Below, piece after piece: positions 1,276 to 11,546 of a stretch of 11,546 bases of DNA (within the stretch, counting starts at the first letter, position 1; every line of letters begins with the position of its first letter). Position numbers and translations under genes: made by a program. The notes beneath the pieces were generated by a model that was given only the letters and a program-made list of their open reading frames with translations, made no database searches and was not told the DNA's origin. The stretch is from the UHGV virus genome UHGV-1974939, one strand, 5' to 3'. This DNA is from a virus.

Positions 1276-2575
1276 TCTCCCGCATATTGCCAGCATGGCC
1301 TTTAATGAGCCGCTGATGCTTGAACCCGCCTATGCGCGGGTTTTCTTTTGTGCGCTTGCAGGCCAGCTTGGGATCAGCCGCCTGACGGATGCGGTGTCCG
1401 GCGACAGCCTGACTGCCGGAGAGGCACCCGCGGCGCTGGCGTTATCCGTTGATGATGACGGACCACGACAGGCCCGCAGTTATCAGGTCATGAACGGCAT
1501 CGCCGTGCTGCCGGTGTCCGGCACGCTGGTCAGCCGGACGCGGGCGCTGCAGCCGTATTCGGGGATGACCGGTTACAACGGCATTATCGCCCGTCTGCAA
1601 CAGGCTGCCAGCGATCCGATGGTGGACGGCATTCTGCTGGATATGGACACACCGGGCGGGATGGTGGCGGGAGCATTTGACTGTGCTGACATCATCGCCC
1701 GTGTGCGAGACATAAAACCGGTATGGGCGCTGGCCAACGACATGAACTGCAGTGCAGGTCAGCTGCTTGCCAGCGCCGCCTCCCGGCGTCTGGTCACGCA
1801 GACCGCCCGGACAGGCTCCATCGGCGTCATGATGGCTCACAGTAATTACGGTGCTGCGCTGGAGAAACAGGGCGTGGAAATCACGCTGATTTACAGCGGC
1901 AGCCATAAGGTGGATGGCAACCCCTACAGCCATCTACCGGATGATGTCCGGGAAACACTGCAGTCCCGGATGGATGCAACCCGCCGGATGTTTGCACAGA
2001 AGGTGTCGGCATATACCGGCCTGTCCGTGCAGGCTGTGCTGGATACCGAGGCTGCAGTGTACAGCGGTCAGGAGGCCATTGATGCCGGACTGGCTGATGA
2101 ACTTGTTAACAGTACCGATGCGATCACCGTCATGCGTGATGCACTGGATGCACGTAAATCCCGTCTCTCAGGAGGGCGAATGACCAAAGAGACTCAATCA
2201 ACAACTGTTTCAGCCACTGCTTCGCAGGCTGACGTTACTGGCGTGGTACAAGCGACGGAGGGCGAGAACGCCAACGCTGCGCAGCCGGACGTGAACGCGC
2301 AGATCACCGCAGCGGTTGCGGCAGAAAACACTCGCATTATGGGGATCCTCAACTGTGAGGAGGCTCACGGACGCGAAGAACAGGCGCGCGTTTTGGCAGA
2401 AACCCCCGGTATGACCGTGGAAACGGCCCGCCGCATTCTGGCCGCAGCACCACAGAGTGCACAGGCGCGCAGTGACACTGCGCTGGATCGTCTGATGCAG
2501 GGTGCACCGGCACCGCTGGCTGCAGGTAACCCGGCATCTGATGCCGTTAACGATTTGCTGAACACACCAGTGTAA
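1256..2575 (+). CDS. C: Head maturation protease / minor capsid protein C (S49/ClpP-like serine protease family)
   Basis: The ORF-track frame 1109..2575 contains the lambda gpC sequence starting at VTAELRNLPHIASMAF. The proposed start is GTG 1256, preceded by GGAGGAG at 1244-1250, and it overlaps the end of B by 20 nt as in lambda. The DTPGG and NCSAGQLLASAA segments are typical of S49-type peptidases. Stop is TAA 2573-2575. The exact start codon is less certain than the gene identity. Confidence 0.88.
   Translation: MTAELRNLPHIASMAFNEPLMLEPAYARVFFCALAGQLGISRLTDAVSGDSLTAGEAPAALALSVDDDGPRQARSYQVMNGIAVLPVSGTLVSRTRALQPYSGMTGYNGIIARLQQAASDPMVDGILLDMDTPGGMVAGAFDCADIIARVRDIKPVWALANDMNCSAGQLLASAASRRLVTQTARTGSIGVMMAHSNYGAALEKQGVEITLIYSGSHKVDGNPYSHLPDDVRETLQSRMDATRRMFAQKVSAYTGLSVQAVLDTEAAVYSGQEAIDAGLADELVNSTDAITVMRDALDARKSRLSGGRMTKETQSTTVSATASQADVTGVVQATEGENANAAQPDVNAQITAAVAAENTRIMGILNCEEAHGREEQARVLAETPGMTVETARRILAAAPQSAQARSDTALDRLMQGAPAPLAAGNPASDAVNDLLNTPV
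1970..2575 (+). CDS. Nu3: Capsid scaffolding protein Nu3, translated from an in-frame internal start within C
   Basis: ATG at 1970 is in the same frame as C and shares its stop. The product begins MDATRRMFAQKVSAY, matching my recollection of lambda Nu3, which is nested in the 3' third of C. The Ala/Gln-rich, charged C-terminal composition fits a scaffold. Confidence 0.8.
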   Translation: MDATRRMFAQKVSAYTGLSVQAVLDTEAAVYSGQEAIDAGLADELVNSTDAITVMRDALDARKSRLSGGRMTKETQSTTVSATASQADVTGVVQATEGENANAAQPDVNAQITAAVAAENTRIMGILNCEEAHGREEQARVLAETPGMTVETARRILAAAPQSAQARSDTALDRLMQGAPAPLAAGNPASDAVNDLLNTPV

Positions 2576-2584
2576 GGGATGTTT

Positions 2585-2917
2585 ATGACGAGCAAAGAAA
2601 CCTTTACCCATTACCAGCCGCTGGGCAACAGTGACCCGGCTCATACCGCAACCGCGCCCGGCGGATTGAGTGCGAAAGCGCCTGCAATGACCCCGCTGAT
2701 GCTGGACACATCCACCCGTAAGCTGGTTGCGTGGGATGGCACCACCGACGGTGCTGCCGTTGGCATTCTTGCGGTTGCTGCTGACCAGACCAGCACCACG
2801 CTGACGTTCTACAAGTCCGGCACGTTCCGTTATGAGGATGTGCTCTGGCCGGAGGCTGCCAGCGACGAGACGAAAAAACGGACCGCGTTTTCCGGAACGG
2901 CAATCAGCATCGTTTAA
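2585..2917 (+). CDS. D: Head decoration protein D
   Basis: ORF-track frame 2579..2917; the product from ATG 2585 ([12 protein letters not shown]...AISIV) is recognisable as lambda gpD, about 110 aa. AGGGA lies just upstream and the stop is TAA 2915-2917. Confidence 0.95.
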
Positions 2918-2934
2918 CTTTACCCTTCATCACT

Positions 2935-2959
2935 AAAGGCCGCCTGTGCGGCTTTTTTT
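2935..2959 (+). terminator. Intrinsic-terminator-like hairpin plus U-tract in the D-E intergenic region
   Basis: ggccgc (2938-2943), loop ctgt (2944-2947), gcggc (2948-2952), then seven T at 2953-2959. AAA at 2935-2937 can extend the stem by pairing with the first T residues. It sits 18 nt after the D stop and before the E start. Confidence 0.55.
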
Positions 2960-2972
2960 ACGGGATTTTTTT

Positions 2973-3998
2973 ATGTCAATGTACACAACCGCCCAGCTGC
3001 TGGCGGCAAATGAGCAGAAATTTAAGTTTGATCCGCTGTTTCTGCGTCTCTTTTTCCGTGAGAGCTATCCCTTCACCACGGAGAAAGTCTATCTCTCACA
3101 AATTCCGGGACTGGTAAACATGGCGCTGTACGTTTCGCCGATTGTTTCCGGTGAGGTTATCCGCTCCCGTGGCGGCTCCACCTCTGAATTTACGCCGGGA
3201 TATGTCAAACCCAAGCATGAGGTGAATCCGCAGATGACCCTGCGTCGCCTGCCGGATGAAGATCCACAGAATCTGGCGGACCCGGCTTACCGCCGCCGTC
3301 GCATCATCATGCAGAACATGCGAGACGAAGAGCTGGCCATTGCTCAGGTCGAAGAGATGCAGGCCGTTTCTGCCGTGCTCAAGGGCAAATACACCATGAC
3401 CGGTGAAGCCTTCGAGCCGGTTGAGGTGGATATGGGCCGCAGTGCGGCGAATAACATCACACAGTCCGGCGGCACGGAGTGGAGCAAGCGTGACAAGTCC
3501 ACGTATGACCCGACCGACGATATCGAAGCCTACGCGCTGAACGCCAGCGGTGTGGTGAATATCATCGTGTTTGATCCGAAAGGCTGGGCGCTGTTCCGTT
3601 CCTTCAAAGCCGTCAAGGAGAAGCTGGATACCCGTCGCGGCTCTAATTCCGAGCTGGAGACAGCGGTAAAAGACCTGGGCGAAGCGGTGTCCTATAAGGG
3701 GATGTATGGCGATACGGCGATCGTCGTGTATTCCGGACAGTACGTGGAAAAAGACGTCAAAAAGAACTTCCTGCCGGACAACACGATGGTGCTGGGGAAC
3801 ACTCAGGCACGCGGTCTGCGCACCTATGGCTGCATTCAGGATGCGGACGCACAGCGCGAAGGCATTAACGCCTCTGCCCGCTACCCGAAAAACTGGGTGA
3901 CCACCGGCGATCCGGCGCGTGAGTTCACCATGATTCAGTCTGCACCGCTGATGCTGCTGGCTGACCCTGATGCGTTCGTGTCCGTACAACTGGCGTAA
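2973..3998 (+). CDS. E: Major capsid protein E (HK97-fold)
   Basis: ORF-track frame 2946..3998; the product from ATG 2973 (MSMYTTAQLLAANEQKFKFDPLF...) is recognisable as lambda gpE, 341 aa. The ORF-track start at 2946 lies inside the upstream hairpin and is rejected. Confidence 0.95.
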   Translation: MSMYTTAQLLAANEQKFKFDPLFLRLFFRESYPFTTEKVYLSQIPGLVNMALYVSPIVSGEVIRSRGGSTSEFTPGYVKPKHEVNPQMTLRRLPDEDPQNLADPAYRRRRIIMQNMRDEELAIAQVEEMQAVSAVLKGKYTMTGEAFEPVEVDMGRSAANNITQSGGTEWSKRDKSTYDPTDDIEAYALNASGVVNIIVFDPKGWALFRSFKAVKEKLDTRRGSNSELETAVKDLGEAVSYKGMYGDTAIVVYSGQYVEKDVKKNFLPDNTMVLGNTQARGLRTYGCIQDADAQREGINASARYPKNWVTTGDPAREFTMIQSAPLMLLADPDAFVSVQLA

Positions 3999-4000
3999 TC

Positions 4001-4024
4001 ATGGCCCTTCGGGGCCATTTTCTC
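4001..4024 (+). terminator. Stable UUCG-tetraloop hairpin with a T-rich tail immediately downstream of E
   Basis: atggccc (4001-4007), loop ttcg (4008-4011), gggccat (4012-4018): a 7-bp stem with five G-C pairs closing a UUCG tetraloop, followed by tttctct. It starts 3 nt after the E stop and ends just before the FI ribosome-binding site. The T-tract is interrupted, so this may be an RNA-stability or attenuator element rather than a strong terminator. Confidence 0.45.
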
Positions 4025-4037
4025 TGTGGAGGAGTCC

Positions 4038-4433
4038 ATGACGAAAGATGAACTGATTGCCCGTCTCCGCTCGCTGGGTGAACAACTGAACCGTGATGTC
4101 AGCCTGACGGGAACGAAAGAAGAACTGGCGCTCCGTGTGGCAGAGCTGGAAGAGGAGCTTGATGACACGGATGACGCAGCCGGTCAGGACTCGTCTGTCA
4201 GCCCGGAAAATGCGCTGACCGGACATGAAAATGAGATGGTATCAGCACAGACGGATACCGTGACTGATACGGCTGCTCTGGTCACGGTTGTGGCACTGGT
4301 GACGCTGCATACCGATGCACTTCACGCCACGCGGGATGAACCTGTGGCATTTGTGCTGCCGGGAACGGCGTTTCGTGTCTCTGCCGGTGTGGCAGCCGAA
4401 ATGACAGAGCGCGGCCTGGCCAGAATGCAATAA
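4038..4433 (+). CDS. FI: DNA packaging / head assembly protein FI
   Basis: ORF-track frame 4026..4433; ATG 4038 is preceded by GGAGGAG at 4028-4034. The product MTKDELIARLRSLGEQLNRD...ERGLARMQ is recognisable as lambda gpFI, with a divergent central linker. Stop is TAA 4431-4433. Confidence 0.9.
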   Translation: MTKDELIARLRSLGEQLNRDVSLTGTKEELALRVAELEEELDDTDDAAGQDSSVSPENALTGHENEMVSAQTDTVTDTAALVTVVALVTLHTDALHATRDEPVAFVLPGTAFRVSAGVAAEMTERGLARMQ

Positions 4434-4809: not shown

Positions 4810-5388
4810 ATGGCCATAAAAGGTCTTGAGCAGGCCGTTGAAAACCTCAGCCGTATCAGCAAAACGGCGGTGCCTGGTGCGTCAGCAATGGCCATTAACC
4901 GCGTTGCTTCATCCGCGATATCGCAGTCGGCGGCACAGGTTGCCCGTGAGACAAAGGTACGCCGGAAACTGGTAAAGGAAAGGGCCAGGCTGAAAAGGGC
5001 CACGGTCAAAAATCCGCAGGCCAGAATCAGGGTTAACCGGGGGGATTTGCCCGTAATCAAGCTGGGGAATGCGCGGGTTGTCCTGTCCCGCCGCAGGCGT
5101 CGTAAAAAGGGGCAGCGTTCAGCCCTGAAAGGTGGCGGCAGCGTGCTTGTGGTGGGAAACCGTCGTATTCCCGGCGCGTTTATTCAGCAACTGAAAAATG
5201 GCCGCTGGCATGTCATGCAGCGTGTGGCCGGGAAAAACCGTTACCCCATTGATGTGGTGAAAATCCCGATGGCGGTGCCGCTGACCACGGCGTTTAAACA
5301 GAATATTGAACGGATACGGCGTGAACGTCTTCCGAAAGAGCTGGGCTATGCGCTGCAGCATCAACTGAGAATGGTAATAAAGCGATGA
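4810..5388 (+). CDS. Z: Tail completion protein Z
   Basis: ATG 4810 preceded by GGGGG at 4801-4805. The 192-aa basic product (MAIKGLEQAVENLSRISKTAVPG...) is recognisable as lambda gpZ. Stop TGA 5386-5388 overlaps the U start. Confidence 0.92.
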   Translation: MAIKGLEQAVENLSRISKTAVPGASAMAINRVASSAISQSAAQVARETKVRRKLVKERARLKRATVKNPQARIRVNRGDLPVIKLGNARVVLSRRRRRKKGQRSALKGGGSVLVVGNRRIPGAFIQQLKNGRWHVMQRVAGKNRYPIDVVKIPMAVPLTTAFKQNIERIRRERLPKELGYALQHQLRMVIKR

Positions 5389-5780
5389 AACATACTGAAC
5401 TCCGTGCAGCCGTACTGGATGCACTGGAGAAGCATGACACCGGGGCGACGCTTTTTGATGGTCGCCCCGCTGTTTTTGATGAGGCGGATTTTCCGGCAGT
5501 TGCCGTTTATCTCACCGGCGCTGAATACACGGGCGAAGAGCTGGACAGCGATACCTGGCAGGCGGAGCTGCATATTGAAGTTTTCCTGCCTGCTCAGGTG
5601 CCGGATTCAGAGCTGGATGCGTGGATGGAGTCCCGGATTTATCCGGTGATGAGCGATATCCCGGCACTGTCAGATTTGATCACCAGTATGGTGGCCAGTG
5701 GCTATGACTACCGGCGCGACGATGATGCGGGCCTGTGGAGTTCAGCCGATCTGACTTATGTCATTACCTATGAAATGTGA
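5385..5780 (+). CDS. U: Tail terminator protein U
   Basis: ATG 5385 overlaps the Z stop as ATGA. The 131-aa product ([31 protein letters not shown]...) is recognisable as lambda gpU. Confidence 0.95.
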
Positions 5781-5787
5781 GGACGCT

Positions 5788-6528
5788 ATGCCTGTACCAA
5801 ATCCTGTAATGCCGGTGAAAGGTGCCGGGACCACCCTGTGGGTTTATAAGGGGAGCGGTGACCCTTATGCGAATCCGCTTTCAGACGTTGACTGGTCGCG
5901 TCTGGCAAAAGTTAAAGACCTGACGCCCGGCGAACTGACCGCTGAGTCCTATGACGACAGCTATCTCGATGATGAAGATGCGGACTGGACCGCGACCGGG
6001 CAGGGGCAGAAATCTGCCGGAGATACCAGCTTCACGCTGGCGTGGATGCCCGGAGAGCAGGGGCAGCAGGCGCTGCTGGCGTGGTTTAATGAAGGTGATA
6101 CCCGTGCCTATAAAATCCGCTTCCCGAACGGCACAGTCGATGTGTTCCGCGGCTGGGTCAGCAGCATCGGTAAGGCGGTGACAGCGAAGGAAGTGATCAC
6201 CCGCACGGTGAAAGTCACCAACGTGGGACGTCCGTCGATGGCAGAAGATCGCAGCACGGTAACAGCGGCAACCGGTATGACCGTGACGCCTGCCAGCACC
6301 TCGGTGGTGAAAGGGCAGAGCACCACGCTGACCGTGGCATTCCAGCCGGAGGGCGCAACCGACAAGAGCTTCCGTGCGGTGTCTGCGGATAAAACAAAAG
6401 CCACCGTGTCGGTCAGTGGTATGACCATCACCGTGAACGGTGTTGCTGCAGGCAAGGTCAACATTCCGGTCGTATCCGGTAATGGTGAACTTGCTGCTGT
6501 TGCAGAAATCACCGTCACCGCCAGTTAA
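5788..6528 (+). CDS. V: Major tail tube protein V with a C-terminal Ig-like (Big_2-type) domain
   Basis: ORF-track frame 5758..6528; ATG 5788 is preceded by GAGGA at 5779-5783. The product [30 protein letters not shown]... is recognisable as lambda gpV, 246 aa. The C-terminal ~85 residues ([64 protein letters not shown]) have the alternating beta-strand pattern of a bacterial Ig-like domain. Confidence 0.93.
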
Positions 6529-6543
6529 TCCGGAGAGTCAGCG

Positions 6544-6966
6544 ATGTTCCTGAAAACCGAATCATTTGAACATAACGGTGTGACCGTCACGCTTTCTGAA
6601 CTGTCAGCCCTGCAGCGCATTGAGCATCTCGCCCTGATGAAACGGCAGGCAGAACAGGCGGAGTCAGACAGCAACCGGAAGTTTACTGTGGAAGACGCCA
6701 TCAGAACCGGCGCGTTTCTGGTGGCGATGTCCCTGTGGCATAACCATCCGCAGAAGACGCAGATGCCGTCCATGAATGAAGCCGTTAAACAGATTGAGCA
6801 GGAAGTGCTTACCACCTGGCCCACGGAGGCAATTTCTCATGCTGAAAACGTGGTGTACCGGCTGTCCGGTATGTATGAGTTTGTGGTGAATAATGCCCCT
6901 GAACAGACAGAGGACGCCAGGCCAGCAGAGCCTGTTTCTGCGGGAAAGTGTTCGACGGTGAGCTGA
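6544..6966 (+). CDS. G: Tail assembly chaperone G
   Basis: ATG 6544 preceded by GGAGAG at 6531-6536. The 140-aa product (MFLKTESFEHNGVTVTLSELSALQRIEHLALMKRQ...) is recognisable as lambda gpG. Stop is TGA 6964-6966. Confidence 0.93.
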   Translation: MFLKTESFEHNGVTVTLSELSALQRIEHLALMKRQAEQAESDSNRKFTVEDAIRTGAFLVAMSLWHNHPQKTQMPSMNEAVKQIEQEVLTTWPTEAISHAENVVYRLSGMYEFVVNNAPEQTEDARPAEPVSAGKCSTVS

Positions 6967-7382
6967 GTTTTGCCCTGAAACTGGCGCGTGAGATGGGGCG
7001 ACCCGACTGGCGCGCCATGCTTGCCGGGATGTCATCCACGGAGTATGCCGACTGGCACCGCTTTTACAGTACCCATTATTTTCATGATTTTCTGCTGGAT
7101 ATGCACTTTTCCGGGCTGACGTACACCGTGCTCAGCCTGTTTTTCAGCGATCCGGATATGCATCCGCTGGATTTCAGTCTGCTGAACCGGCGCGAGGCTG
7201 ACGAAGAGCCTGAAGATGATGTGCTGATGCAGAAAGCGGCAGGGCTTGCCGGAGGCGTTCGTTTTGGCCCGGACGGGAATGAAGTTATCCCCACTTCCCC
7301 GGATGTGGCGGACATGACGGAGGATGACGTAATGCTGATGACAGTATCAGAAGGGATCGCAGGAGGAGTCCGGTATGGCTGA
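6544..7382 (+). CDS. T: Tail assembly chaperone G-T fusion, made by programmed -1 ribosomal frameshift at 6942-6948
   Basis: The -1 frame relative to G is open from 6948 to TGA 7380-7382 (ORF track 6948..7382, product FDGELSFALKLAREMGRPDWRAMLAGMSSTEYADWHRFY...) and has no independent start with a ribosome-binding site. A G GGA AAG heptamer sits in the G zero frame seven codons before the G stop. This is the textbook lambda G/G-T arrangement. Confidence 0.85.
6942..6948 (+). other. Slippery heptanucleotide G_GGA_AAG for the G to G-T -1 frameshift
   Basis: The sequence gggaaag at 6942-6948 has GGA and AAG as zero-frame codons of G (codon starts 6943 and 6946), an X_XXY_YYZ pattern. The -1 frame continues in-frame into the T ORF. 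Confidence 0.85.
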
Positions 7383-9957
7383 ACCGGTAGGCGATCTGGT
7401 CGTTGATTTAAGTCTGGATGCGGCCAGATTTGACGAGCAGATGGCCAGAGTCAGGCGTCATTTTTCCGGTACGGAAAGTGATGCGAAAAAAACAGCGGCA
7501 GTCGTTGAACAGTCGCTGAGCCGACAGGCGCTGGCTGCACAGAAAGCGGGGATTTCCGTCGGGCAGTATAACGCCGCCATGCGTATGCTGCCTGCACAGT
7601 TCACCGACGTGGCCACGCAGCTTGCAGGCGGGCAAAGTCCGTGGCTGATCCTGCTGCAACAGGGGGGTCAGGTGAAGGACTCCTTCGGCGGGATGATCCC
7701 CATGTTCCGGGGGCTTGCCGGTGCGATCACCCTGCCGATGGTGGGGGCTACCTCGCTGGCGGTGGCGACCGGAGCGCTGGCGTATGCCTGGTATCAGGGC
7801 AACTCAACCCTGTCCGATTTCAACAAAACGCTGGTCCTTTCCGGTAATCAGGCAGGACTGACGGCAGATCGTATGCTGGTCCTGTCCAGAGCCGGGCAGG
7901 CGGCAGGGCTGACGTTTAACCAGACCAGCGAGTCACTCAGCGCACTGGTTAAGGCGGGAGTAAGCGGTGAGGCTCAGATTGCATCCATCAGCCAGAGTGT
8001 GGCGCGTTTCTCCTCTGCATCCGGCGTGGAGGTGGACAAGGTCGCTGAAGCCTTCGGGAAGCTGACCACAGACCCGACGTCGGGGCTGACGGCGATGGCA
8101 CGCCAGTTCCATAACGTGACGGCGGAGCAGATTGCGTATGTCGCTCAGTTGCAGCGTTCCGGCGATGAGGCAGGGGCATTGCAGGCGGCGAACGAGGCCG
8201 CAACGAAAGGGTTTGATGACCAGACCCGCCGCCTGAAAGAGAACATGGGCACGCTGGAGACCTGGGCAGACAGGACAGCGCGGGCATTCAAATCCATGTG
8301 GGATGCGGTGCTGGATATTGGTCGTCCTGATACCGCGCAGGAGATGCTGATTAAGGCAGAGGCTGCGTTTAAGAAAGCAGACGACATCTGGAATCTGCGC
8401 AAGGATGATTATTTTGTTAACGATGAAGCGCGGGCGCGTTACTGGGATGATCGTGAAAAGGCCCGTCTTGCGCTTGAAGCCGCCCGAAAGAAGGCTGAGC
8501 AGCAGAGTCAACAGGACAAAAATGCGCAGCAGCAGAGCGATACCGAAGCGTCACGGCTGAAATATACCGAAGAGGCGCAGAAGGCTTACGAACGGCTGCA
8601 GACGCCGCTGGAGAAATATACCGCCCGTCAGGAAGAACTGAACAAGGCACTGAAAGACGGGAAAATCCTGCAGGCGGATTACAACACGCTGATGGCGGCG
8701 GCGAAAAAGGATTATGAAGCGACGCTGAAAAAGCCGAAACAGTCCGGCGTGAAGGTGTCTGCGGGAGAGCGTCAGGAAGATCGAGCACATGCAGCTCTTC
8801 TTGCGTTACAAGCTGAACTAAAAATGCTTGAGCAGCATAGCGGAGCGAATGAAAAAATCAGCCAGCAGCGCCGAGATTTGTGGACAGCCGAAAGCCAGTA
8901 TGCCGTGTTGCATGAGAAGTTGTCTGCTGACGTTCTGGATGGACAGAAGAAATCGCTAAGTATCGAGGAAAAATCTCTTCTTGCTCATGAAAAAGAGACG
9001 CTGGAGTACAAACGTCAGCTGGCTGCACTTGGCGATAAGGTTGAACACCAGAAACGGCTGAACGAACTGGTACAGCAGGCGGATAAATTCGCACAGCAAC
9101 AACGGGCAAAACGGGCAGCCATTGAGGCGAAAAGCCGGGGACTGACTGACCGGCAGGCAGCGCGGGAAGCCATGGAACAGCGCCTGAAGGAACAGTATGG
9201 CGATAATCCGCTGGCGCTGAATAACGTCATGTCAGAGCAGAAAAAGACCTGGGCGGCTGAAGACCAGCTTCGCGGGAGCTGGATGGCAGGCCTGAAGTCC
9301 GGCTGGAGTGAGTGGGAAGAGAGCGCCACGGACAGTATGTCGCAGGTAAAAAGTGCAGCCACGCAGACCTTTGATGGTATTGCACAGAATATGGCGGCGA
9401 TGCTGACCGGCAGTGAGCAGAACTGGCGCAGCTTCACCCGTTCCGTGCTGTCCATGATGACAGAAATTCTGCTTAAGCAGGCAATGGTGGGGATTGTCGG
9501 GAGTATCGGCAGCGCCATTGGCGGGGCTGTTGGTGGCGGCGCATCCGCGTCAGGCGGTACAGCCATTCAGGCCGCTGCGGCGAAATTCCATTTTGCAACC
9601 GGAGGATTTACGGGAACCGGCGGCAAATATGAGCCAGCGGGGATTGTTCACCGTGGTGAATTTGTCTTCACGAAGGAGGCAACCAGCCGGATTGGCGTGG
9701 GAAATCTCTACCGGCTGATGCGCGGCTATGCCACCGGCGGTTATGTCGGTGGCACCGGAAGTCCGGCGCAAATGCGGCGTTCAGAGGGTATCAGGTTTGA
9801 GCAGAACAACAACGTGGTGATTCAGAACGACGGTACGAATGGTCTGCCAGGTCCACAGATGATGAAGGCAGTGTATGACATGGCCCGCAAGGGTGCCCGT
9901 GATGAAATTCAGACACAGATGCGTGATGGTGGCCTGTTCTCCGGAGGTGGACGATGA
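7375..9957 (+). CDS. H: Tail tape measure protein H
   Basis: ATG 7375 preceded by AGGAGGAG at 7361-7368 and overlapping the T stop by 8 nt. The 860-aa product is recognisable as lambda gpH. It has an N-terminal hydrophobic segment (GLAGAITLPMVGATSLAVATGALAYAW), a long charged Ala/Gln/Lys/Glu-rich helical centre and a Gly-rich C-terminal region (GSIGSAIGGAVGGGASASGG). Confidence 0.95.
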   Translation: MAEPVGDLVVDLSLDAARFDEQMARVRRHFSGTESDAKKTAAVVEQSLSRQALAAQKAGISVGQYNAAMRMLPAQFTDVATQLAGGQSPWLILLQQGGQVKDSFGGMIPMFRGLAGAITLPMVGATSLAVATGALAYAWYQGNSTLSDFNKTLVLSGNQAGLTADRMLVLSRAGQAAGLTFNQTSESLSALVKAGVSGEAQIASISQSVARFSSASGVEVDKVAEAFGKLTTDPTSGLTAMARQFHNVTAEQIAYVAQLQRSGDEAGALQAANEAATKGFDDQTRRLKENMGTLETWADRTARAFKSMWDAVLDIGRPDTAQEMLIKAEAAFKKADDIWNLRKDDYFVNDEARARYWDDREKARLALEAARKKAEQQSQQDKNAQQQSDTEASRLKYTEEAQKAYERLQTPLEKYTARQEELNKALKDGKILQADYNTLMAAAKKDYEATLKKPKQSGVKVSAGERQEDRAHAALLALQAELKMLEQHSGANEKISQQRRDLWTAESQYAVLHEKLSADVLDGQKKSLSIEEKSLLAHEKETLEYKRQLAALGDKVEHQKRLNELVQQADKFAQQQRAKRAAIEAKSRGLTDRQAAREAMEQRLKEQYGDNPLALNNVMSEQKKTWAAEDQLRGSWMAGLKSGWSEWEESATDSMSQVKSAATQTFDGIAQNMAAMLTGSEQNWRSFTRSVLSMMTEILLKQAMVGIVGSIGSAIGGAVGGGASASGGTAIQAAAAKFHFATGGFTGTGGKYEPAGIVHRGEFVFTKEATSRIGVGNLYRLMRGYATGGYVGGTGSPAQMRRSEGIRFEQNNNVVIQNDGTNGLPGPQMMKAVYDMARKGARDEIQTQMRDGGLFSGGGR

Positions 9958-10981: not shown

Positions 10982-10986
10982 ATCCC

Positions 10987-11546
10987 ATGACAGAGACAGA
11001 ATCAGCGATTCTGGCGCACGCCCGGCGATGTGCGCCAGCGGAGTCGTGCGGCTTCGTGGTGAGAACGCCGGAAGGGGAAAGATATTTTCCCTGCGTGAAT
11101 ATCTCCGGTGAGCCGGAGGATTATTTCCGGATGGCTCCGGAGGACTGGCTGCAGGCAGAAATGCAGGGTGAGATTGTGGCGCTGGTCCACAGCCACCCCG
11201 GTGGTCTGCCCTGGCTGAGTGAGGCTGACCGGCGGCTGCAGGTGCAGAGTGATTTGCCGTGGTGGCTGGTCTGCCGGAGGACGATTCATAAGTTCCGCTG
11301 TGTGCCGCATCTCACTGGGCGGCGCTTTGAACACGGGGTGACGGACTGTTACACGCTGTTCCGGGATGCTTATCATCTGGCGGGGATTGAGATGCCGGAT
11401 TTTCATCGCGAGGATGACTGGTGGCGTCACGGTCAGAATCTCTATCTGGATAATCTGGAGGCCACAGGGCTGTATCAGGTGCCGTTGTCATCAGCACAAC
11501 CGGGCGATGTGCTGCTGTGCTGTTTTGGTTCATCGGTGCCGAATCA
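10987..11546 (+). CDS. K: Tail tip assembly protein K (JAMM/MPN plus NlpC/P60 two-domain protein), 3'-truncated by the window edge
   Basis: Not in the ORF track because the frame has no stop inside the window. Hand translation from ATG 10987 in frame 1 gives MTETESAILAHARRCAPAESCGFVVRTPEGERYFPCVNISGEPEDYFRMAPEDWLQAEMQGEIVALVHSHPGGLPWLSEADRRLQVQ...GVTDCYTLFRDAYHLAGIEMPDF..., open to nt 11546. It contains an H-x-H-x7-S-x2-D JAMM signature at 11188-11229 and follows L by 5 nt, as K does in lambda. The start could instead be ATG 11131, which has GGAGGA upstream. Confidence 0.85.
   Translation, partial: MTETESAILAHARRCAPAESCGFVVRTPEGERYFPCVNISGEPEDYFRMAPEDWLQAEMQGEIVALVHSHPGGLPWLSEADRRLQVQSDLPWWLVCRRTIHKFRCVPHLTGRRFEHGVTDCYTLFRDAYHLAGIEMPDFHREDDWWRHGQNLYLDNLEATGLYQVPLSSAQPGDVLLCCFGSSVPN

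What the first reader, a model, noticed from the sequence alone, without database searches (positions are those of the whole stretch)
2935..4024. Terminator-like hairpins bracket the major capsid gene E inside the late operon
A GC stem with a T7 tract (2935-2959) precedes E, and a 7-bp stem with a UUCG tetraloop (4001-4018) follows it. Late transcription in lambda comes from pR' under Q antitermination, so intrinsic terminators inside the operon should be read through. These structures more likely act as RNA-stability or processing barriers, or as attenuators that help set the high E and D output relative to downstream genes. The first hairpin also overlaps the region just upstream of the E start and could affect its translation initiation.
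Basis: seen in the sequence. Interest (0 to 1): 0.45.

Follow-up and report, generated by a model that had tools for sequence, protein, structure and literature searches.

The report
Conserved hairpins flanking lambda capsid gene
Two small RNA hairpins sit just before and just after the major capsid gene of this lambda-like phage; they are real and conserved in distant relatives, but database records already annotate them as an ordinary feature of phage late operons, and I found no measurement of what they do.

Summary
They fill the two largest non-coding gaps of the window, D-E and E-FI. As short segments they fold far better than shuffles (z -3.5 and -4.0), but equally stable hairpins occur by chance inside genes. 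The case therefore rests on position and conservation. In 234 loci with an E-family capsid gene, down to about 40% protein identity, a GC hairpin sits at both positions. Stem sequences differ between lineages, with compensatory changes and plus-strand G.U wobbles.

The two elements differ. The D-E element keeps stem plus U-tract (62/62 enteric, 14/15 Pseudomonas-group sequences) with a free loop, the form of an intrinsic terminator. The E-FI element keeps the stem and a C(UNCG)G tetraloop (53/59) but not the U tail (0/15 in the Pseudomonas group), as expected of an mRNA decay barrier.

The feature is already known. The mEp237 record calls the D-E hairpin a rho-independent terminator. The P22 record notes a stem-loop after its coat gene [quoted passage not shown]. 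HK97 carries several such annotations. I found no measurement of function. Interest is low.

The parts
2585..2917 (+). Gene D (head decoration protein), the cistron immediately 5' of hairpin 1
   Evidence: ORF and translation starting MTSKE. It corresponds to lambda D 5747-6079. A D-like gene (C-terminus ...AFVGTPISLQLP) also precedes the hairpin in distant loci.
2935..2956 (+). Hairpin 1: AAAGGCCGC-CUGU-GCGGCUUUU. The GC core is 2939-2943 paired with 2948-2952.
   Evidence: Fold -12.2 kcal/mol, z -3.48. The core pairs are unchanged in 54-56 of 58 distinct relatives, and 5 of the exceptions are U.G wobbles. There are 33 different loops among 59 sequences.
2953..2959 (+). U7 tract abutting hairpin 1; its first four U also pair with the A-tract
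   Evidence: At least 5 T in the 8 nt after the GC core in 62/62 enteric and 14/15 Pseudomonas-group unique sequences.
2960..2972 (+). E leader: ACGGGA (weak SD-like GGGA at 2962-2965) followed by a second T7 run (2966-2972)
   Evidence: Sequence. T7-ACGGGA is nearly invariant in the enteric relatives.
2973..3998 (+). Gene E (major capsid protein), 341 codons plus stop
   Evidence: ORF; corresponds to lambda E 6135-7160; used as query for the related loci.
4001..4018 (+). Hairpin 2: AUGGCCC-UUCG-GGGCCAU, a C(UUCG)G tetraloop hairpin
   Evidence: Fold -12.9 kcal/mol, z -4.00; listed as terminator-like. The core GGCCC/GGGCC is unchanged in 58/59 enteric sequences and the basal pairs covary. UNCG loops occur in 53/59. 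Different stems with compensatory changes occur in other lineages.
4019..4025 (+). U-rich tail UUUCUCU of hairpin 2 (lambda itself reads UGUUUCUCU)
   Evidence: The tail is not conserved: at least 5 T of 8 in 17/18 lambda-close sequences, 26/53 other enteric sequences and 0/15 Pseudomonas-group sequences.
4028..4433 (+). FI ribosome-binding site (GGAGGAG 4028-4034) and gene FI (ATG 4038)
   Evidence: A weak second hairpin at 4026-4039 pairs part of the SD and the AUG.

Best explanation
Both elements are cis-acting hairpins of the plus-strand late polycistronic mRNA, and they are two different kinds of element.

The D-E element has the complete form of an intrinsic terminator: A-tract, 5-bp GC stem, free loop and U7. 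Inferred: it stops RNA polymerase that has not been modified by Q, so E and everything downstream depend on antitermination. Q-modified polymerase reads through it during lytic growth.

Once transcribed, it persists in the mRNA as a 3' cap on the D segment. It also leaves a U-rich, unstructured leader for E.

The E-FI element is a hyperstable C(UNCG)G-capped stem. Inferred: its main role is post-transcriptional. It blocks 3'-to-5' exonucleases after downstream endonucleolytic cleavage, so the D-E part of the transcript outlives the FI-FII-Z part. D and E encode the two most abundant head proteins. In lambda-like phages it may also terminate weakly.

Shown here: existence, position, RNA-level selection, and the different conservation signatures of the two elements. 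Inferred: every activity (termination, read-through, decay block).
For: Position: these are the only plus-strand hairpins at or below -9 kcal/mol outside coding sequence, and they fill the two largest gaps of the window.

Conservation: a hairpin at or below -8 kcal/mol lies upstream of E in 62/62 enteric, 15/15 Pseudomonas-group and 5/7 marine-group unique sequences. One lies downstream of E in 73/73, 15/15 and 6/7. The lineages carry roughly 7 different upstream stems and 14 different downstream stems.

Covariation in the downstream helix: 33 cells changed on both sides against 8.3 +/- 2.6 in shuffles; score 0.421 against at most 0.091 when the partner is slid.

RNA level, plus strand: G.U and U.G wobbles are tolerated, and these would be A.C mismatches on the other strand. 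The loop of hairpin 2 is UNCG in 53/59 sequences, and only its second position varies freely.

Terminator form of hairpin 1: the U-tract is co-conserved with the stem and the loop is free, with 33 variants. The same GCCGC-N4-GCGGC-T7 module occurs in many unrelated phage contexts: 46 of 81 sampled occurrences were not next to an E-family gene. The mEp237 record annotates it as a rho-independent terminator.

Decay-barrier reading of hairpin 2: the stem is kept without any U tail and directly abuts the next SD in 15/15 Pseudomonas-group sequences.

Precedents: stem-loops at the 3' ends of abundant cistrons set subunit stoichiometry in the cip-cel operon (PMC4423207). Terminators inside long antiterminated operons suppress spurious transcription (PMC8955417). 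Late transcription depends on Q antitermination (PMC7547250; PMC8022706).
Against: No transcript 3' ends, half-lives or mutants were available, so all activities are inferred.

From memory (Sampson et al. 1988, which could not be retrieved): differences in lambda late-protein yield were attributed mainly to translation initiation, not mRNA amount.

Lambda has no hairpin next to the abundant tail gene V. It does have hairpins around the low-copy gene J. So the link to protein abundance is imperfect.

Hairpin 2 starts 2 nt after the E stop codon, so terminating ribosomes would repeatedly melt it.

The conserved U-tract of hairpin 1 could instead serve E translation.

Confidence: 0.5

Rival explanations
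1. Translation-initiation elements. Hairpin 1 locks the upstream sequence into a local fold and presents its U7 tract, plus the A/U-rich spacer, as an unstructured S1-binding or standby platform. This would give the weak SD of E (GGGA) a very high initiation rate. Hairpin 2 insulates or tunes the FI ribosome-binding site.
For: The distance from hairpin 1 to the ATG is held at 15-23 nt across families. U7-ACGGGA is nearly invariant in enteric relatives. In the Pseudomonas group hairpin 2 directly abuts the SD of the next gene. The same hairpin-U-tract-SD-ATG layout precedes the HK97 major tail gene and tape-measure gene. From memory, late-gene yields in lambda are set largely at translation initiation (Sampson 1988).
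Against: A translational enhancer would not need the U-run to abut the stem, yet it does in nearly every sequence. The same module occurs in many contexts with no gene start nearby. The UNCG selection in hairpin 2 argues for stability of the hairpin itself. Neither hairpin pairs with an SD or an AUG.
Confidence: 0.18
2. Pure transcriptional insulators. Both hairpins exist only to stop polymerases that were not loaded with Q, meaning spurious initiation inside the roughly 25-kb operon or read-in in the lysogen. They have no role in mRNA stability or expression ratios.
For: Hairpin 1 has canonical terminator form. Internal terminators combined with processive antitermination are a described strategy against spurious transcription (PMC8955417). 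PMC8022706 offers this as one of two possibilities. Lambda and HK97 carry several such elements along the late operon.
Against: Hairpin 2 lacks a U tail in whole lineages yet is strictly kept (0/15), so termination cannot be its conserved activity. This reading does not explain why the elements sit next to the capsid gene in every lineage, or why hairpin 2 selects a UNCG loop.
Confidence: 0.15
3. Partial attenuators that work even on Q-modified polymerase. A fraction of transcripts ends at each hairpin, which creates a stepwise drop in transcript level along the operon.
For: Both score as terminator-like in this window. The window's E-FI tail (TTTTCTCTG) is more U-rich than lambda's (TTGTTTCTCTG). 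From memory, partial termination after a capsid gene is known for T7 Tphi.
Against: Termination at the D-E element would lower E relative to D, although both are needed in about equal and maximal amounts. From memory, Q-modified polymerase is highly resistant to intrinsic terminators. Abundant tail proteins (V) are encoded downstream. The U tail of hairpin 2 is not conserved.
Confidence: 0.12
4. No RNA function. The hairpins are chance inverted repeats, or DNA-level elements such as recombination linkers at module joints or protein-binding palindromes.
For: Equally stable hairpins occur by chance inside genes of the window. The stem cores are nearly invariant within the enteric phages, as a DNA sequence signal would be.
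Against: Position is conserved with different stem sequences across lineages. There is compensatory change and strand-specific G.U tolerance. The UNCG loop signature has meaning only in plus-strand RNA.
Confidence: 0.03

Closest known systems
Annotated stem-loops and putative terminators inside lambdoid late operons (HK97, P22, mEp237 records)
   Same: Same place and same form. The P22 record has a stem_loop at 6102-6119 just after coat gene 5, noted as 'similar in location to stem-loops in phage HK97 and phage lambda'. HK97 has a putative terminator at 5192-5213 just after the major head gene, and others after the portal gene and on both sides of the major tail gene. mEp237 annotates the homologue of hairpin 1 as a rho-independent terminator.
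   Different: Nothing essential; the window carries the lambda versions. The classical lambda record J02459 does not annotate them. Their roles are stated to be unknown (PMC8022706).
Intrinsic (rho-independent) terminators bypassed by processive antitermination (lambda tR' with Q; pLS20-type conjugation operons)
   Same: Hairpin 1 has a GC stem, a short loop, an abutting U7 and an upstream A-tract. It lies inside an operon transcribed by antiterminated polymerase.
   Different: It is not at the end of a transcription unit, and termination activity was not measured. Hairpin 2 meets the form only in lambda-close phages.
Intercistronic mRNA decay-barrier stem-loops / selective RNA processing and stabilization (cip-cel operon, PMC4423207; from memory also the Rhodobacter puf operon and REP elements in malEFG)
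   Same: A stable stem-loop immediately 3' of the cistrons needed in highest amount, within a polycistronic mRNA. It is conserved without needing a U-tract.
   Different: No processed 3' ends or differential half-lives have been shown for lambda D/E. The stems are short (5-7 GC pairs).
C(UUCG)G hyperstable tetraloop hairpins in phage intercistronic regions (from memory: Tuerk et al. 1988, phage T4)
   Same: Hairpin 2 has the exact C(UUCG)G motif. Relatives keep U-N-C-G with a C-G closing pair in 53/59 sequences.
   Different: That description is of a structural motif, not a function.
Terminator directly after the capsid gene in unrelated phages (SPP1 gene 13; from memory T7 Tphi after gene 10)
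   Same: SPP1 has a predicted terminator at 8775-8815 that begins at the stop codon of the major capsid gene (ends 8777).
   Different: The capsid families and transcription systems are unrelated. T7 Tphi acts on T7 RNA polymerase and is a measured partial terminator.

Membership tests
Intrinsic (rho-independent) terminator | GC-rich stem of at least 5 pairs with a 3-8 nt loop | tested here: met
   Hairpin 1 has 5 G-C pairs plus 4 further pairs and a 4-nt loop. Hairpin 2 has 7 pairs (5 G-C) and a 4-nt loop.
Intrinsic (rho-independent) terminator | U-tract (at least 5 of 8) immediately 3' of the stem, conserved together with the stem | tested here: met
   This row is for hairpin 1. The window reads TTTTTTTA. 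The criterion holds in 62/62 enteric, 14/15 Pseudomonas-group and 3/5 marine-group sequences.
Intrinsic (rho-independent) terminator | The same U-tract criterion, applied to hairpin 2 | tested here: inconclusive
   Met in the window (5 T of the 8 nt after the GC core) and in 17/18 lambda-close sequences. It holds in only 26/53 other enteric, 0/15 Pseudomonas-group and 2/6 marine-group sequences.
Intrinsic (rho-independent) terminator | Transcripts end there, shown by RNA 3' ends in vivo or release in vitro | not testable with these tools
   No 3'-end data were reachable. The Sakai Term-seq data (PMC7547250) sit in GEO, and the paper does not state that the culture was induced for it.
mRNA decay-barrier stem-loop (selective RNA processing and stabilization) | Stable stem-loop at the 3' side of the more abundant cistron of a polycistronic mRNA | tested here: met
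   The hairpins follow D and E directly. That D and E are the most abundant head proteins is established knowledge, not tested here.
mRNA decay-barrier stem-loop (selective RNA processing and stabilization) | Structure conserved independently of any terminator U-tract | tested here: met
   Met for hairpin 2. Not met for hairpin 1, whose U-tract is co-conserved with its stem.
mRNA decay-barrier stem-loop (selective RNA processing and stabilization) | Processed 3' ends at the hairpin base and a longer half-life of the upstream segment | not testable with these tools
   This needs Rend-seq or a Northern blot with a rifampicin chase.
UNCG tetraloop hairpin | U-N-C-G loop closed by a C-G pair | tested here: met
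   The window has C(UUCG)G. Relatives have UUCG 30, UGCG 16, UCCG 6 and UACG 1 of 59. Hairpin 1 has none (0/59).
Any curated Rfam RNA family | Covariance-model match | tested here: not met
   The whole window was searched at E <= 1. Only two chance microRNA-model hits appeared, elsewhere in the window; nothing at 2935-2959 or 4001-4018.

The most novel reading that the evidence does not exclude
The two hairpins act together as a cassette that carves a selectively stabilised capsid message (D-E or E alone) out of the late transcript. They would thereby set capsid stoichiometry at the RNA level across the whole D/E capsid family. In addition, the canonical terminator kept directly in front of E would be a safety lock against leaky capsid-protein synthesis in lysogens, for example to avoid triggering capsid-sensing abortive-infection systems. 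Neither idea is excluded by the evidence here, and neither was tested.
Probability: 0.1. Interest if true: 0.5.

Novelty: already known. Interest (0 to 1): 0.2.

Why it matters
The value is mainly calibration. A terminator-like hairpin inside a phage late operon does not mark the end of an operon and is not a discovery.

A modest open question remains. Experts state that the roles of such intra-operon terminators are unknown (PMC8022706).

The comparative contrast found here gives a concrete, cheap hypothesis to test in lambda. The element before the capsid gene keeps stem plus U-tract with a free loop. The element behind it keeps stem plus UNCG loop with a dispensable U tail.

It is also relevant to engineering expression ratios in phage-derived operons.

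Tried and rejected
- Rfam at a permissive threshold found nothing at either hairpin.
- Thermodynamics as the sole criterion was rejected. Comparable hairpins are as frequent in the window as in shuffles, and many lie inside genes.
- I first took the L-K 'gap' of the classical lambda annotation, which folds strongly (z -3.07), for a third structured intergenic region. The K reading frame is open from ATG 10987, 5 nt after the L stop, so the region is coding.
- The first viral-contig scan with lambda E returned only sequences about 99% identical. Diversity came from genome contigs and from re-querying with distant E homologues.
- MAFFT cannot align the hairpins of distant lineages. For one search I used loop-anchored 18-nt segments. 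This is partly circular, because the best hairpin was picked in each sequence, and two rows were shifted in the alignment.
- I asked whether the near-invariant GCCGC/GCGGC core marks a sequence-specific element. Of 81 sampled GCCGC-N4-GCGGC-T7 occurrences in viral contigs, 46 are in unrelated contexts. It is a generic terminator module.
- Literature: Sampson 1988, Casjens & Hendrix 2015 and Liu 2013 are not held. No paper with lambda late-operon 3'-end mapping was found. The Sakai Term-seq data (PMC7547250) are in GEO only, and the paper does not state that the culture was induced for it.
- A minus-strand terminator role was rejected. The minus-strand tail is CTTTAGTG and the fold is weaker.

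Full report
CONTEXT. The window is the head-tail part of the late operon of a lambda-like phage. It is 96.6-97.9% identical in DNA to lambda, HK630, mEp332 and 2H10. C/Nu3 ends at 2575. D is 2585-2917, E is 2973-3998 and FI is 4038-4433. The non-coding gaps of the window are D-E (55 nt), E-FI (39 nt) and six others of 5-15 nt. The 148-nt L-K 'gap' of the 1982 lambda annotation is coding, because the K frame is open from ATG 10987.

Hairpin 1 (2935-2956) is AAAGGCCGC-CUGU-GCGGCUUUU, with a T7 run at 2953-2959. Its MFE is -12.2 kcal/mol and z is -3.48. Hairpin 2 (4001-4018) is AUGGCCC-UUCG-GGGCCAU with tail UUUUCUCUG. Its MFE is -12.9 and z is -4.00. In wider 51-61 nt contexts the z-scores fall to -1.3 and -2.2.

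The consensus scan lists hairpin 2 as terminator-like. It does not list hairpin 1. My guess is that it extends that stem into the T-run. Counted from the GC core, the tail of hairpin 1 is TTTTTTTA.

Energy alone does not set the two apart. The window has about 26 distinct plus-strand stem-loops at or below -9 kcal/mol (37 entries), against 26.8 +/- 6.5 in block shuffles. However, these two are the only ones outside coding sequence, and they occupy the two largest gaps. My rough estimate, from the hairpin density, is that this has a probability below about 0.01. That figure is inference, not a formal test.

CONSERVATION. I collected 234 loci with a complete E-family gene, giving 131 unique flank pairs. 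They include:
- enteric prophages with 87-100% E protein identity;
- Erwinia (75%) and a 68% relative;
- a Pseudomonas group at about 41%;
- a marine gamma-proteobacterial group at about 40%;
- a more remote group (L179-L184).

In the distant groups the gene in front is still D-like.

A hairpin at or below -8 kcal/mol lies within 70 nt upstream of E in 62/62 enteric, 15/15 Pseudomonas-group, 5/7 marine-group and 4/6 remote-group unique sequences. One lies within 70 nt downstream in 73/73, 15/15, 6/7 and 5/5.

Stem sequences differ between lineages. Upstream examples are GCCGC/GCGGC, CCGCGC/GCGCGG, GCGGCTG/CAGCCGC and CTGGCGGC/GCTGCCAG. Downstream examples are GGCCC/GGGCC, GGCGCGC/GCGCGCC, GGCGCAC/GTGCGCC, GGCCCGGC/GCCGGGCC, GGGTGCCC/GGGCACCC and GGGGCGC/GCGCCCC.

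In 30 lineage representatives the flanking 60-nt windows mostly rank in the best 1-9% of all windows of the locus.

TWO DIFFERENT SIGNATURES.
- Hairpin 1. Within a 59-sequence alignment the five core pairs are unchanged in 54-56 of 58 distinct rows, and five of the exceptions are U.G wobbles. The A-U/G-U/G-C basal pairs covary: 20 cells changed on both sides against 1.4 +/- 0.9 in shuffles. The loop is free: 33 different loops, none UNCG or GNRA, at 1.7-1.9 bits per position. The U-tract abutting the stem is as conserved as the stem. This is the signature of an intrinsic terminator.
- Hairpin 2. The enteric core is unchanged in 58/59 sequences and the basal pairs covary (UA 33, CG 8). Across lineages, 33 cells change on both sides against 8.3 +/- 2.6 in shuffles. 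The covariation score is 0.421 against 0.110 in shuffles and at most 0.091 when the partner is slid. One caveat applies: the segments were chosen as the best hairpin in each sequence. The loop is UNCG in 53/59 sequences, and only its N position varies freely. The U tail is dispensable: at least 5 T of 8 in 17/18 lambda-close, 26/53 other enteric and 0/15 Pseudomonas-group sequences. In the Pseudomonas group the stem runs straight into the next SD. This is the signature of a structure selected for its own stability, not for termination.

The G.U wobbles and the UNCG loop have meaning only in plus-strand RNA. The minus strand folds less well and has no T tail.

THE GCCGC/GCGGC CORE IS NOT A SPECIAL SIGNAL. 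Several are again followed by an SD and a start codon. It is a generic terminator module. A 5-bp stem can hardly drift except through U.G intermediates, which are observed.

ALREADY KNOWN.
- The mEp237 record annotates the homologue of hairpin 1 as a 'rho-independent terminator'.
- The P22 record carries a stem_loop just after coat gene 5, noted as 'similar in location to stem-loops in phage HK97 and phage lambda'.
- The HK97 record annotates putative terminators after the portal gene, after the major head gene, on both sides of the major tail gene, and before the tape-measure gene.
- SPP1 has a predicted terminator starting at the stop codon of its capsid gene.
- In lambda itself, every late-operon gap longer than 40 nt holds such an element: D-E, E-FI, I-J and J-lom.
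[quoted passage not shown] It offers partial termination, or stopping spurious non-antiterminated transcription, as possibilities (PMC8022706).

MECHANISM (INFERRED). Late transcription depends on Q antitermination at pR'/tR'. From memory, Q-modified polymerase ignores intrinsic terminators. So hairpin 1 can stop only unmodified polymerase. It would make E and everything downstream strictly Q-dependent, in line with the terminator-plus-antiterminator strategy described for long operons (PMC8955417).

Once read through, both hairpins remain in the mRNA. Hairpin 2 most plausibly blocks 3' exonucleases, and so does hairpin 1 for the D segment. That would prolong the life of the D-E part of the message, as in selective RNA processing and stabilization (PMC4423207). 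The U7 and A/U-rich leader left by hairpin 1 may also help the weak SD of E.

Points against:
- there are no transcript data;
- from memory, Sampson et al. 1988 attributed late-protein ratios mainly to translation initiation;
- there is no hairpin by gene V, yet there are hairpins around low-copy gene J;
- hairpin 2 starts only 2 nt after the E stop codon.

I put about 0.5 on the dual terminator-lock plus decay-barrier reading. The rivals get 0.18 (translation-centred), 0.15 (pure insulator) and 0.12 (attenuation under Q). Chance or a DNA-level role gets about 0.03.

VERDICT. Its function is still unmeasured, which leaves a small, easily testable question.

Noticed in passing
window 1322-1343 (+): A terminator-like hairpin, GAACCCGC-ctatgc-GCGGGTTT followed by TCTTTTGT, lies inside gene C, 47 nt after the stop of portal gene B (1275). 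It is identical in lambda. HK97 has a putative terminator annotated at the end of its portal gene.
   Followed up: partly
window 4026-4039 (+): A small second hairpin (GUGGA-GGAG-UCCAU) pairs part of the FI Shine-Dalgarno sequence and the FI AUG. It could damp FI translation.
   Followed up: no
window 10982-11133 (+): The classical lambda record starts K 148 nt after L, and this stretch folds strongly (-65.7 kcal/mol, z -3.07). However, the K frame is open from ATG 10987, 5 nt after the L stop. The 'gap' is most likely an annotation artefact and the region is coding.
   Followed up: yes
L270 (lambda J02459) 15445-15504 and 18904-18964: The I-J and J-lom gaps of lambda, outside the window, also hold GC hairpins with T-rich tails. 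The I-J one has a UGCG loop. So J is bracketed in the same way as E.
   Followed up: partly
window 3999-4037 compared with L002 2000-2040: The E-FI spacer of the window is 2 nt shorter than lambda's. Its tail reads TTTTCTCTG instead of TTGTTTCTCTG, which makes it a better U-tract than in lambda.
   Followed up: partly
L006-L021, L034, L038-L057, L060-L074 (genome contigs): Lambda E at 94-100% identity appears on short, often low-coverage contigs of assemblies from unrelated bacteria (Pseudoxanthomonas, Bradyrhizobium, Neobacillus, Kitasatospora, an Akkermansia MAG and others). This looks like lambda DNA contamination of the assemblies.
   Followed up: no
window 9729-9754 (+): The strongest simple hairpin of the window (-19.1 kcal/mol, TGCCACCGGCG-gtta-TGTCGGTGGCA) lies inside tape-measure gene H.
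   Followed up: no
L268 (HK97) 3693-3733 and 5399-5438; several loci: The layout 'GC hairpin, then U-tract, then SD, then ATG' recurs in front of the HK97 major tail gene and tape-measure gene. It also recurs in front of unrelated genes in viral contigs, for example GCGGCTTTTTTTATGGGCGAAATATG.
   Followed up: partly
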